Shown here piece after piece: positions 52,001-55,000 of a DNA stretch of 64,000 nt (positions within the stretch are counted from its first letter, which is position 1; the number at the start of each line of letters is the position of its first letter). The stretch is taken from NCBI GenBank assembly GCA_964638175.1, contig CAZWZY010000005.1, forward strand, positions 1 through 64,000, read 5' to 3'. A program made the position numbers. This stretch comes from an uncultured Thermoplasmatales archaeon. GTDB lineage: Archaea > Thermoplasmatota > E2 > DHVEG-1.

Positions 52001-55000
52001 GAGAATATGAAAATAAAATAATGCAGAGGAGGCATATTTTTTAACATATTTAATATGGCCATCAAGAACCCCCATGGATGGGAGGAACTCTTGTTTACCT
52101 TTAATATCAACTAAGCCACCAGAGATGTATGTACCATCATCTTTCACCAAGAGTAATTTTATCGAATTTCTCTTAATAAGCATATGAATGTATTTTTGAT
52201 AATACTCAGGCATTTCTTCACCGTATCTCTCTAGCATATACGGAAGAAACATGCGACAATAAAAAAACTCCATTTTTTTTTCATCGTTAGTGAGTTCATA
52301 GGAGTAACTATATTCACTAACTTTCTTAATGTCTTTTCGTGCCCCGCTTGAAAAAGAGTTTGTAATCTCTTTCAAGGGTTTTGATGAATCTAACACCATG
52401 TTTATCCATTCAGGAATGGCAACAAACTGTAATTTCTGGAGGATTTTTAAAAAAAATCGATCTGTCTTAATTAACGCGATATCAGTAGAACTGGGCAGCA
52501 TTCTAACAATTTTCTTTAATTGGAATATCGAAAAAGTACCTATCTTTTTAATTGTGTAGTGAGAATTAAACAGCCTACATGTCAGAAAATGCAGTGAATC
52601 TGAATTACCTGCATAAAAAACGGCAAATGGTTCTCCACTATATTTTTCCTCACCAGATAAGTAATATCCAGGTAGCTTAGAATATCCGATTATATCAGAT
52701 ATGCGTTGGAGAATTATCTCAAAATAGGTTAACAGAGATCGATTCAATACTTCTGGAATGGTTTTACAATATAGTAAAAACGCACTTATGAACAAACGAT
52801 CTGACGAAGAATCATCGATGCTTTTCATAAAAAAACTACATGAAAATAAAGCAGACTCTATTAAAGATTTCTAGATTTATAGCTTGCTGCTAATTTTTTT
52901 GTGAAAACACAAAATAATGCAAGTTTGGCGTATGAATGATGCTGAAATCCGACTGTTTAAGGTTCTTTTTTGCATAAATAAAGCGTTTAGAACTCTCTTT
53001 TTGTGAAACGACAGGTTGTATTGATTCTGCCGGTGTTCCACTTTTACATGAATATTTGATGGCAGTTCCAACATGAAACCCCACCTCCTTGATGAAATCA
53101 AGGGTCATCATAAGATCCTCAACCGTTTCTGATGGGAAGCCAATAATACAATCGGTTCCCAAGATAAGTCGGGGGCTTGCTTGCTTCAGTCTCACACAAA
53201 CTTTTTTTATCTGTTGAATATCTGAATACCGGTTCATAAGTTTGAGTATTCTTTTACTTCCTGACTGAAAGGGAATATCTAATCCTGTAATCTTATTTCG
53301 TGAGAGAATCCGTTCCAAATCATCACAGTATTTAACAGCCCATCGAGGATGGGCATTTAAAATCATGATATCGTACTTTCCTTCTATCGATGTAAGTGCA
53401 TCCAATAGTGCTGGGAGGGTAGTACCAATATCTATTCCATACGCGCCGATATTATCTGCGGTTAAAATAAAGTGACAATAACCTGCTGCTAGTCCCTTTT
53501 TAAATTCTGTAACGCATTGATCAATAGATTTACTTTGTAAATTTCCGACTGCTTTGTGTATTGCACAATACGAACAAGTTCCATGACATCCCCATGATGT
53601 TCGTATCTGAAATGATGAATTTTTTAGAAGAAGCCGATACAGAATTACATGCTCTCCAAAAAGGTGTTTCAATATATAAAATCGGAGATCATACAACAAT
53701 GGATGAACTACTGAATTGTTAATAATAAACCGCCCAGCACCAGATAATGTACTTCTATCGTTATTTTGAAAGAGAATATTTGCATCCTGAATCTTGGAGA
53801 AAGGAATAGTAATATCTGGAATTAGTCGGTCCATCTTTTCAGGATGTCTGACCAACTCCTCGCTGGTGATTGTTTTACCCTTGAAAAGACCAGAAAGTTT
53901 TATTGGTTCTATTGCAGGCAAACAGCCGGCAACAATGAGTTTAGCATCATAGTTTAGGAATTCTTTGACTTTTTTTAGAGAGATCTCCGTTGGTCTATCT
54001 AATACGGCACAAGCAACAAAAACAATAATATCTGCATTTTTTGGATGGAAAACAGGTACATATCCATTGCTGAGGAGATATGTTTTAATCTTCATTGCAT
54101 CAAGTTCACGTCGTTCACACGCGCTGACATAGATAAAAAATTTCTTCATTTCAAATAAAGAATGGATTTATCTTTATATGTATTAATGTTTTTTTGACAG
54201 TTTACCATGAAAAATGTTTTTATATAAATCGTTTATTCTTTTGATAGAAAATGATGGGGAAAAAGGTCGTATATAGTAATGAGATTTTTATTAATTAATC
54301 CTTTTGTAGATTATAGAAAAGTTAGCAAACTCTTTTCCATTAAAGCAGAAATACCTCCCCTAGGACTACTTTATGTTGCTAGTGCTTTAGAAGAGAAAGG
54401 TCATGAGGTTTCGGTAATCGACTTTTGTGCAGAGGAATTTTCAAATACTAGATTACTGTCTGCCATCAAGCATACAGATGCGGTAGGCATTACCGTCCGA
54501 ACGCTTGAAATTGACAGTGTTCGCCATATTTGTGATACAATAAAGCAGTATACTCCTCAACTGCCTCTTATCATCGGGGGGCCCCATTGCACAATTGATC
54601 CTGAAAAAGCGTTGAGAGAGACGGGAGCTGATATTTGTGTCCAGGGTGAAGGAGAGGAAGTTATCACTGTAATCGCTGAGAGACTTTCTCAAGGGGAAGA
54701 ATTAGACGGTATTCCTGGTGTTTTGTTTGTCGAGGAAAAAGAAATCAAACGAGGCCGCCCAGCAAAAGAAATCGAAAATTTAGATATGATTTCCTTTCCT
54801 TCATTTCATCTCGTCAGCCAATATCAGTACGGAGAGGTTGTTGGTGGATATAACCCCACAAGAGGAAAAGTCGCATCCCTTATGACCAGCAGAGGATGTC
54901 CCTATCATTGTCGATATTGCATCAACGCAGCAATTACTAAAACATATAGAACGCGGTCAGCCGAAAATGTCATCCGGGAGTTGGTCGAAATTAAAAAAAA

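What a model noticed while it worked through the whole genome (the two positions that open the first line are those of the whole stretch)
52890..54149. TRAM-less methylthiotransferase subfamily in lipid/rSAM clusters
Besides its normal MtaB (g1546), the genome has two MiaB/RimO-family genes (g0659 here, g1252 at C14:10163-11437) that keep all six cluster cysteines but end before the TRAM domain and sit among B12-rSAM and Fem-like genes. I read them as methylthiotransferases acting on a small molecule or lipid, not tRNA or uS12. That would be a new substrate class for this enzyme family.
Evidence so far: NCBIfam TIGR00089 E 1e-59 and 3e-69, below every specific cut. 16 sequences from this genome and relatives: 14 of 16 have 6 of 6 Cys, and 16 of 16 stop where the TRAM domain of g1546 begins. 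In 6 of 25 order genomes at E < 1e-62; next to B12-rSAM/Fem-like genes in most loci of call 31, but stand-alone in the 5 loci shown in call 171.
(Added by a program. Inside this text positions count along the whole contig: contig position 1 is position 1 of the stretch shown here. "Call 12" and the like, gene names such as g00115 and contig names such as C1 are that model's own, and its searches are not shown. The text may have been shortened before it was handed on; [...] marks where a part breaks off. The agent that wrote the report below was given it as the finding of a first reader that could run no searches.)

Follow-up and report, generated by a model that had tools for sequence, protein, structure and literature searches.

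The report
TRAM-less methylthiotransferase clade tailoring glycans
This archaeal gene encodes a relative of the enzymes that add a methylthio (-SCH3) group to tRNA or a ribosomal protein, but it lacks their substrate-holding tail and belongs to a large separate branch that often lies beside sugar-building and radical-methylating genes, so it likely modifies a cell-surface sugar unit or its acyl group, which would be a new substrate class for this enzyme family.

Summary
Confirmed. Window 52890-54149(-) encodes 419 aa: UPF0004 plus radical SAM, all six cluster cysteines, no TRAM. Its model overlays RimO residues 3-367 (Z 29.9), ending where TRAM begins. The genome also has a paralogue (C14) and a normal e-MtaB (C21). 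TRAM-less proteins form one branch apart from MiaB, RimO, MtaB and e-MtaB (34 vs 40 rows, SH 99). The branch spans archaea and many bacterial phyla, is patchy (20 of 67 family genomes), often multi-copy, and accessory to canonical enzymes (22 of 23 genomes). Neighbours within 4 kb (94 loci): B12-rSAM 36, glycan-type 46 (38 strict), lipid-type 15, no label 19. The adjacent Fem-like gene folds like aminoacyl-tRNA-dependent transferases; its C14 homologue carries a GatE tRNA-binding tail. Best reading: likely methylthiolation of a surface-glycan unit or its aminoacyl group (0.45). Chemistry and substrate are untested, and several residues shared by canonical enzymes are replaced. No description found in ten library searches. 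The scan noted this family before on other DNA (eight listed AI notes, six favouring glycans).

The parts
52890..54149 (-). TRAM-less MiaB/RimO-fold two-cluster radical SAM protein, 419 aa
53892..54143 (-). UPF0004 (MTTase) domain, residues 3-86; auxiliary-cluster Cys11, Cys47, Cys76; subfamily motif C-x-R-R-x-L-D where canonical enzymes have C-x-x-N-x-x-D/E
   Evidence: Pfam E 8.8e-10; column tables
53628..53747 (-). Subfamily-specific helical insert, residues 135-174 (linker C76-C188 median 109 aa vs 73-77); basic, net charge about +5; low model confidence
   Evidence: (block pLDDT 56-76)
53091..53591 (-). Radical SAM core, residues 187-353, with C188xxxC192xxC195, the Q-S-G...L-x-x-M-x-R stretch and GFPxE
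   Evidence: Pfam E 2.5e-14
51512..52828 (-). Fem-like double-GNAT protein, 438 aa, 61 bp downstream on the same strand; predicted aminoacyl-tRNA-dependent transferase
   Evidence: TIGR03019 E 2e-7; model pLDDT 84.8; top folds Sbb17 Z 15.3, FemX 15.1 and 14.4, FemA 13.9, ATE1 12.5, MprF 12.3, against about 10-11 for plain GNATs, with rmsd 6.8-10 for the top four
50683..51534 (+). Class I SAM methyltransferase, 283 aa, convergent with the Fem-like gene (3' ends overlap by 23 bp)
   Evidence: Methyltransf_11 E 2e-15; part of the same cassette in L009 and L010
54279..55697 (+). B12-binding radical SAM protein, 472 aa, divergent from the MTTase-like gene; no specific family
   Evidence: same arrangement in L009 (88% identical) and L010 (60%)
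54150..54278 (.). AT-rich 129-bp divergent intergenic region with a TATA-like TTTATATA at 54219-54226 (archaeal consensus recalled; function untested)
   Evidence: sequence; the bacterial-type promoter scan was uninformative, 23 sites vs 17.9 +/- 5.3 in shuffles

Best explanation
The gene encodes an intact RimO/MiaB-fold radical SAM protein with all six cluster cysteines and no TRAM domain, from a branch separate from the four known methylthiotransferase clades, and it likely transfers a methylthio group to a cell-envelope glycan building block, either a sugar carbon or an amino-acyl/acyl group attached to an amino sugar. Inferred mechanism, by analogy with RimO: (1) SAM 1 methylates a sulfur on the N-terminal [4Fe-4S] cluster held by C11/C47/C76; (2) SAM 2 is cleaved at the C188/C192/C195 cluster and the 5'-deoxyadenosyl radical abstracts H from the substrate; (3) the substrate radical captures the bound CH3S. 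A small substrate would not need TRAM; the C-x-R-R motif, the Asp at the RimO Gln192 position and the basic helical insert would reshape the pocket for an anionic, possibly nucleotide- or lipid-linked, sugar. In this locus the Fem-like neighbour would attach an amino acid from aminoacyl-tRNA to an amino sugar, and the B12-rSAM and class I methyltransferase would add methyl groups. Shown: sequence, fold, phylogeny and gene context. Inferred: cluster binding, chemistry, substrate and the order of steps.
For: Fold and six Cys match RimO/MiaB. Separate branch. Accessory: 22 of 23 carrier genomes also have another TIGR00089 match over cut-off, and the 26 fetched and scanned pass the MiaB, RimO, MtaB or e-MtaB cut-offs. 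Patchy and multi-copy, up to 9 matches in one genome, one of them its e-MtaB. Within 4 kb: B12-rSAM 36 of 94 vs 1 of 60 canonical loci and 3.8% own-genome background; glycan-type 46 of 94 vs 4 of 60 and 14.6%; GT or NDP-sugar genes 25 of 57 in non-E2 loci. Fusions: P0191 carries an N-terminal NDP-sugar transferase-like domain (PF03407, weak, E 9e-4) and P0162 a C-terminal domain with a GT8 lead; both domains occur as separate genes in glycan loci that also hold a TRAM-less gene (L120 twice, L169, L126; E 1e-18 to 1e-22). The Fem-like neighbour's eight best fold matches are aminoacyl-tRNA-dependent transferases, headed by one bound to streptothrisamine (PMC12945691 passages describe Orf11 glycylating streptothrisamine from Gly-tRNA). 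The C14 homologue and 5 others carry a GatE C-terminal tail. Its bacterial relatives have glycan-type neighbours in 29 of 55 loci.
Against: No biochemistry. Residues shared by canonical enzymes are replaced (N14 to R, N45, R201, E226, R262, H291), so the chemistry may have changed. 48 of 94 loci have no glycan-type neighbour and 19 have no tailoring label. The window cassette holds no glycosyltransferase, and in E2 archaea GT or NDP-sugar neighbours are only 5 of 37, close to the 10% background. The local HMMs were built from neighbours of TRAM-less genes and undercount controls: direct Pfam found glycan-type genes in 3-4 of 17 control loci where they found none, so the glycan enrichment is about 2-3 fold, not 7 fold. 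The Fem-like gene is not an obligate partner: 14 of 25 genomes with it have no TRAM-less gene, and only 6 have the two within 9 kb; 0 of 55 more distant Fem-like loci have one. Related loci are not independent samples. The two library searches for such a methylthio-glycan product returned no paper.
Confidence: 0.45

Rival explanations
1. It is a methylthiotransferase acting on a lipid, acyl chain or free small molecule.
For: Lipid-type neighbours in 15 of 94 loci vs 0 of 60 controls and 4.5% background. L081 has two copies among four ketosynthases. Riflebacteria-type loci L177, L178 and L181 have 2-3 copies with ACP or MMPL and B12-rSAM genes. C14 has a BtaA-like DUF3419 gene. UbiA genes lie beside L034, L036, L157 and L164. 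The Fem-like fold also occurs in MprF and in antibiotic pathways.
Against: Glycan-type loci outnumber lipid-type loci 46 to 15. The window cassette has no lipid gene. The ketosynthase-linked copies (L081, L177) form their own sub-branch away from the window gene.
Confidence: 0.2
2. It keeps the two-cluster scaffold but does different chemistry on an envelope or pathway intermediate, such as thiolation without methylation, methylation, or a rearrangement or oxidation that uses the auxiliary cluster as an electron acceptor or substrate anchor.
For: Both N-domain Asn residues next to the auxiliary-cluster Cys (N14, N45; 83-100% in each canonical clade) are replaced, and the RimO Gln192 position is Asp/Glu in 90% or more. 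Tandem paralogues (L018, L023, L026, L177, L178, L181, L183) suggest several reactions.
Against: Six Cys and the SAM-binding motifs are kept. R13 aligns with RimO Lys12 (R or K in 71-76%). Bacterial MtaB also lacks the Gln (I/V there). All characterised UPF0004-rSAM proteins transfer CH3S (PMC5352715 section 6).
Confidence: 0.17
3. It still acts on RNA or protein, for example a non-anticodon RNA site, the amino acid on an aminoacyl-tRNA, or a surface protein or peptide, with the basic insert or a partner replacing TRAM.
For: The insert is basic (about +5) and whole-protein net charge resembles e-MtaB. TRAM does not set i6A/t6A specificity (PMC2952846 passages). The partner Fem-like protein likely binds tRNA. 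19 of 94 loci have no tailoring neighbours, and L013, L019 and L028 sit in a thiolase/HgdD cluster.
Against: Carrier genomes keep their canonical enzymes. Patchy, multi-copy distribution is unlike housekeeping RNA modification. Basic residues common to canonical enzymes (R201, R262) are lost. RimO, which acts on a protein, still needs TRAM.
Confidence: 0.12
4. These are decaying or truncated copies of MtaB/RimO with no function.
For: A few copies are split or carry stops (L026, L132, L174, G062, G142).
Against: The best 150 hits among 50%-identity representatives all score above 350 bits. The six Cys and a subfamily-specific motif are conserved and the end point is uniform. They form a deep branch of their own.
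Confidence: 0.03

Closest known systems
RimO (uS12 Asp beta-methylthiotransferase; T. maritima 4jc0, 2qgq; TIGR01125)
   Same: Best solved relative by sequence (E 1.2e-34) and fold (Z 29.9, rmsd 2.7, 342 aligned, 28% identity). Same UPF0004 plus radical SAM core and six Cys. A basic residue at the Lys12 position.
   Different: No TRAM. 165 bits against a 357 cut-off. Asn13 is Arg, Gln192 is Asp and Tyr227 is not kept (numbers counted from the alignment). About 35 extra linker residues. Lies outside the RimO clade. Found in archaea.
e-MtaB/CDKAL1 (TIGR01578), MtaB (TIGR01579) and MiaB (TIGR01574; 7mjv-7mjz)
   Same: Same fold (MiaB Z 29.8). TIGR01578 is the best specific model (E 1e-51). Cys47-Cys76 spacing X28, as in the genome's own e-MtaB.
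   Different: No TRAM. All under cut-off. The genome's true e-MtaB is a separate gene on C21. The MiaB-invariant Arg three residues after the second Cys (100% in MiaB) is variable here.
Fifth MTTase family of Arragain et al. 2010 (cited in PMC5352715; recalled as MTL1 of Campylobacterota)
   Same: Also an uncharacterised MTTase-like group.
   Different: Nine proteins from four Campylobacterota genomes fall inside MiaB, RimO and MtaB with full tails of 127-144 residues, none in the TRAM-less branch. The original paper was not held, so the identity of MTL1 rests on recall.
FemABX-type aminoacyl-tRNA transferases (FemX, FemA, Orf11/Sbb17, MprF), for the neighbour at 51512-52828
   Same: Double-GNAT fold; top eight structural matches; weak FemX sequence hit (E 0.5-0.9).
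   Different: About 11-18% identity and high rmsd. Acceptor and donor unknown. Some family members carry a GatE C-terminal tail.

Membership tests
MiaB/RimO-family methylthiotransferases (TIGR00089) | N-terminal UPF0004 domain with three auxiliary-cluster Cys | tested here: met
   PF00919 E 8.8e-10; C11, C47, C76 conserved. Spacing X35/X28 vs X35-36/X32-33 in PMC5352715; X28 also in the own e-MtaB.
MiaB/RimO-family methylthiotransferases (TIGR00089) | Radical SAM core with CxxxCxxC | tested here: met
   PF04055 E 2.5e-14; C188, C192, C195 in 121 of 121.
MiaB/RimO-family methylthiotransferases (TIGR00089) | C-terminal TRAM domain | tested here: not met
   No PF01938. Model ends at RimO residue 367. 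Tail median 80 vs 128-135. A local TRAM profile hit 1 of 324 test proteins at E < 0.01, a contig-cut e-MtaB; it misses divergent TRAMs, so length and fold carry the result.
MiaB/RimO-family methylthiotransferases (TIGR00089) | Score over the curated cut-off (251 bits) | tested here: not met
   202 bits; C14 paralogue 234; 2 of 14 TRAM-less proteins scanned passed.
MiaB/RimO-family methylthiotransferases (TIGR00089) | Binds two [4Fe-4S] clusters and transfers CH3S using two SAM | not testable with these tools
   Needs reconstitution and assay.
RimO (TIGR01125) | Cut-off 357 bits and placement in the RimO clade | tested here: not met
   165 bits; outside the clade.
e-MtaB / MtaB / MiaB | Equivalog cut-offs (315, 357, 355 bits) and clade placement | tested here: not met
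   176, 152 and 128 bits; outside all three clades.
Fifth family (MTL1, recalled as Campylobacterota) | Groups with the divergent Campylobacterota MTTases | tested here: inconclusive
   It does not group with any of nine Campylobacterota proteins, but the defining paper was not held and the search for the name gave 0 papers.
FemABX aminoacyl-tRNA transferases (neighbour 51512-52828) | Double-GNAT fold | tested here: met
   Z 13.9-15.3 to Sbb17, FemX and FemA over model residues 50-337.
FemABX aminoacyl-tRNA transferases (neighbour 51512-52828) | Uses aminoacyl-tRNA as donor | not testable with these tools
   Indirect support only: GatE-tail fusion in 5 of 13 hits plus L024.

The most novel reading that the evidence does not exclude
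A large, ancient sister branch of the methylthiotransferases, shared by archaea and many uncultured bacterial phyla, has shed TRAM and installs methylthio groups on cell-envelope glycans and, in sub-branches, on lipids. In E2 archaea it works with an aminoacyl-tRNA-dependent Fem-like transferase (sometimes fused to a GatE tRNA-binding tail) and B12 radical methylases to build methylthio-amino-acyl sugars, a surface chemistry not yet described.
Probability: 0.35. Interest if true: 0.85.

Novelty: new variant of a known kind. Interest (0 to 1): 0.7.

Why it matters
The known substrates of this family are tRNA A37 and ribosomal protein uS12, and it is described as always having three domains (PMC10702137, PMC2952846 and PMC5352715, passages or section read). 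A conserved two-domain branch in tailoring clusters would give the first small-molecule, glycan or lipid substrate and show that TRAM is dispensable for the chemistry. It offers concrete candidate genes for enzymatic methylthiolation outside translation; PMC10702137 shows such enzymes are being sought (the ANME-1 e-MtaB did not make methylthio-F430), though I did not test any link to F430. It also flags a mis-annotation: many members are named MiaB or MtaB by their sources.

Tried and rejected
Simple truncation or assembly artefact: rejected, the end point is uniform across 120 near and 138 distant homologues. A split or fused TRAM: the 'longer' search gave one hit, a TRAM-bearing 828-aa protein; only 8000 candidates were scored, so this is weak. 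Identity with Campylobacterota MTTases: not supported. Phage or plasmid carriage: the 15 of 33 phage and 25 of 99 plasmid rows shown were all 29% identical or less, and the annotated ones were rimO or miaB. Obligate pairing with the Fem-like gene: rejected. Membrane anchoring by the insert: hydrophobic moment 0.50, no higher than barrel helices at 0.60. Net charge did not separate the branch from tRNA enzymes. Expression: no RNA holder listed. Promoter scan uninformative. The mixture-model tree did not finish, so both trees are FastTree with SH-like support and a midpoint root; in the 105-row tree the TRAM-less side is weakly resolved around L056. A methionaquinone or methylthio-F430 link was considered from memory and but not tested. 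One wrong ORF (L165:3000-4091) entered alignment A4; it and P0275, a near duplicate of L023, were dropped for A5. Literature: ten searches showed no description of a TRAM-less branch in the listings or passages seen; the library lacks most subscription papers, Arragain 2010 was not held, and no supplements were read, so an earlier mention cannot be excluded. No complex prediction was run.
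Full report
Observation. The ORF at 52890-54149 on the minus strand is 419 aa. It has a UPF0004 domain (3-86) and a radical SAM domain (187-353) and no TRAM. It scores 202 bits on TIGR00089 (cut-off 251) and is far under the e-MtaB, RimO, MtaB and MiaB cut-offs. The genome holds two more family members: a TRAM-less paralogue on C14 (36% identical) and, on C21, an ordinary e-MtaB with TRAM.

TRAM is absent, not missed. An AlphaFold2 model built on 120 homologues has mean pLDDT 91.9. Against 48,161 solved chains its best matches are RimO 4jc0 (Z 29.9, rmsd 2.7, 342 aligned) and MiaB 7mjv (Z 29.8); the whole model maps to RimO residues 3-367 of 421 modelled. After the GFPxE Glu the subfamily has a median of 80 residues (120 near homologues) or 75 (138 distant ones), against 128-135 in MiaB, RimO, MtaB and e-MtaB. 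A TRAM profile built from 48 canonical proteins recovered 45 of 48 in leave-one-clade-out tests and hit only one of 324 test proteins, a contig-cut e-MtaB. That profile misses the divergent TRAMs of Campylobacterota RimO and MtaB, so length and fold are the main evidence. Total length looks normal because the linker between the two cluster motifs is about 35 residues longer (109 vs 73-77), forming basic helices of low model confidence.

A large separate branch. The word search found 304 proteins at E <= 1e-30; none of the 120 listed carries TRAM. The best 150 hits of a profile search over 50%-identity representatives all score above 350 bits. In the ESM Atlas 21 of 30 hits are UPF0004 plus radical SAM clusters without TRAM, about 70% bacterial in the three shown. 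Genome scans returned members in E2 Thermoplasmata, Woesearchaeota, Methanoperedens, Methanoculleus, Methanosarcinales, Omnitrophota, Bacteroidales, Chloroflexota, Planctomycetota, Desulfobacterota, Riflebacteria, Saccharibacteria, Spirochaetia, Alphaproteobacteria and Bacillota. In a 74-row FastTree, 34 TRAM-less rows are split from 40 canonical rows with SH-like support 99, and nine Campylobacterota proteins fall inside MiaB, RimO and MtaB. In the 105-row tree the 49 canonical rows group at 99 and the TRAM-less side is weakly resolved. The root is the midpoint only, so whether TRAM was lost or never gained is open.

Accessory, not housekeeping. Of 23 carrier genomes, 22 have another TIGR00089 match over cut-off, and most bacteria have three; the 26 of these fetched and scanned pass the MiaB, RimO, MtaB or e-MtaB cut-offs. 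Among 150 other genomes of the class, 22 have a hit at E < 1e-85: 20 of 67 in the own family, 1 of 4 in the other family of the order, 1 of 25 in one further family; one genome has nine matches including its e-MtaB. The cassette is slightly AT-rich (GC 0.363 vs 0.396).

Active-site comparison. All six Cys are present in 118 of 120, 130 of 138 and 52 of 57 proteins of the three sets. G187, S206, Y237-G238, P268, Q295-S296, M305, R307, GFPxE and R389 are shared with canonical enzymes. Replaced are N14 (Arg in 79-98%), N45, R201, E226, R262 and H291; the RimO Gln192 position is Asp or Glu, though bacterial MtaB also lacks that Gln. R13 aligns with RimO Lys12. That Lys12, Gln192 and Tyr227 of RimO and Arg66 of MiaB matter for catalysis is recalled; two searches did not find a paper to check it. 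The cluster machinery is therefore kept and the substrate face has changed, but methylthio transfer is an inference.

Neighbourhoods. I annotated representatives of the neighbours with Pfam, built local profiles from them and scored genes within 4 kb. Of 103 TRAM-less and 99 canonical loci listed, 94 and 60 had at least 4 kb of flank and were counted. B12-rSAM: 36 of 94 vs 1 of 60, own-genome background 3.8%. Any glycan-type gene: 46 of 94 (38 when PaaK-like, Fem-like, LPG, GDSL and AsnB labels are dropped) vs 4 of 60, background 14.6%. Lipid-type: 15 of 94 vs 0 of 60, background 4.5%. Class I methyltransferase: 24 of 94 vs 1 of 60. No label: 19 of 94. GT or NDP-sugar genes are common outside E2 (25 of 57) but not within it (5 of 37). 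Because the profiles came from the test set, I scanned 17 control loci directly with Pfam: no B12-rSAM, but 3-4 loci with glycan-type genes that the local profiles missed. The B12-rSAM link is about ten-fold; the glycan link is about 2-3 fold. Related genomes are not independent, so I do not rely on the p-values.

Fusions. Among the representatives, P0191 has an N-terminal NDP-sugar transferase-like domain (PF03407, E 9e-4, below cut-off), P0161 a histidine phosphatase (E 4e-39) and P0162 a 330-aa C-terminal domain whose Atlas look-alikes are mostly unnamed, one with GT8 on 10% of members. The extra domains of P0162 and P0191 occur as separate genes in L169, L120 (two) and L126, all glycan loci with a TRAM-less gene. 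This is modest but independent support.

The window cassette. The gene is flanked by a divergent B12-rSAM gene, a Fem-like gene 61 bp downstream and a convergent methyltransferase. The same four genes lie together in L009 (75% identical MTTase-like protein) and L010 (50%, methyltransferase and Fem-like gene in changed order). The Fem-like protein's model (pLDDT 84.8) matches Sbb17 bound to streptothrisamine (Z 15.3), FemX (15.1, 14.4), FemA (13.9), ATE1 (12.5) and MprF (12.3) ahead of plain GNATs (about 10-11), with high rmsd. PMC12945691 (passages) describes FemABX-like Orf11 transferring glycine from Gly-tRNA to streptothrisamine. The C14 homologue is fused to a GatE C-terminal region (NF003107 E 9e-36; 46% identical to a stretch on C3, presumably the genome's GatE), as are 4 more of 13 hits and L024. 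C14 also has a DegT aminotransferase, four B12-rSAM genes, a DUF3419 (BtaA-like) gene and a GNAT. The Fem-like family is in 25 of 151 class genomes; 11 of these have a TRAM-less gene (one a divergent hit at 2e-64), 6 within 9 kb, and 14 have none. More distant Fem-like loci, almost all bacterial, have glycan-type neighbours in 29 of 55 and a TRAM-less gene in 0 of 55. The pairing is real but loose.

Mechanism. Most likely the protein binds two [4Fe-4S] clusters, methylates a cluster sulfur with one SAM, makes a substrate radical with a second, and joins the two, as set out for RimO in PMC5352715 section 6. The substrate is likely a glycan building block; in this locus an amino-acylated amino sugar is the most economical guess, since RimO's chemistry on an Asp beta-carbon would carry over to an amino-acyl group. 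I put this at 0.45, a lipid or small-molecule substrate at 0.2 (probably true for the ketosynthase-linked sub-branch in L081 and L177), altered chemistry at 0.17, RNA or protein at 0.12 and decay at 0.03. The branch may well use more than one substrate class.

What is known. PMC10702137 (passages) names four clades, tRNA and uS12 as the only substrates, three domains, and one MTTase per archaeal genome in general. PMC2952846 (passages) and PMC5352715 (passages and section 6) state that all MTTases are tripartite; the latter cites a fifth family. Passages of PMC9177418, PMC13459092, PMC9407657, PMC7545696 and PMC2996862 added no non-translation substrate. Ten searches showed no description of a TRAM-less branch, within the limits of the library; no supplements were read. 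The protein works like an MTTase by fold but fails the TRAM and cut-off tests, so I file it as a new variant and not as a member of any known clade. The scan's own notes list this family on other DNA eight times in one look-up, six favouring a glycan substrate, one a membrane-linked island and one an NAD context. I had recorded the glycan reading before seeing them; they are unchecked AI notes and are not counted as evidence.

Verdict. Interest 0.70.

Noticed in passing
L006:156-2018 (genome C14:156-2018); also L024:7283-9043, L271, P0270-P0272, P0274: Fem-like double-GNAT protein fused to the C-terminal helical/Yqey region of GatE, a recurrent fusion that suggests a tRNA-binding tail on an aminoacyl transferase.
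   Followed up: partly
window 40950-41652: A proteasome alpha-subunit copy matches its intact L009 orthologue in two frames, and no ORF of 100 aa or more is listed there; another copy (48% identical to the L009 protein) lies on C24. Pseudogene or assembly error.
   Followed up: no
window 20640-32324: A second sugar-tailoring cluster about 20 kb away: GNAT, NDP-sugar epimerase, DegT-type aminotransferase, three B12-rSAM genes, a VimE-like deacetylase, two further radical SAM genes and a GT4. It could supply the substrate for the cassette.
   Followed up: partly
window 43188-50623: A block that by eye looks like MvhD/HdrA-type genes, plus DsrE-like and Lrp genes, sits between the cassette and genes that are adjacent to it in L009, so it is absent at that place in the close relative.
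   Followed up: no
L081:4963-14575; L177, L178, L181, L183: Bacterial loci with two or three TRAM-less copies among ketosynthase, ACP, hexapeptide-repeat, MMPL or B12-rSAM genes; the L081 and L177 copies form their own sub-branch, possibly a sulfur-containing lipid pathway.
   Followed up: partly
L013, L017, L019, L028: A close-knit sub-branch sits beside a GNAT and 2-hydroxyacyl-CoA dehydratase genes, in L013, L019 and L028 also thiolase/ChsH2/SDR genes: an acyl-CoA context with no glycan genes.
   Followed up: no
L026:7460-17466: Four TRAM-less genes (one split, one divergent and inverted) with a sulfotransferase, a PaaK-like ligase, an IS200 transposase and a methyltransferase in 10 kb.
   Followed up: no
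P0161, P0247: TRAM-less proteins fused to an N-terminal histidine phosphatase (E 4e-39) and to a short stretch that looks like a methyltransferase by eye only.
   Followed up: no
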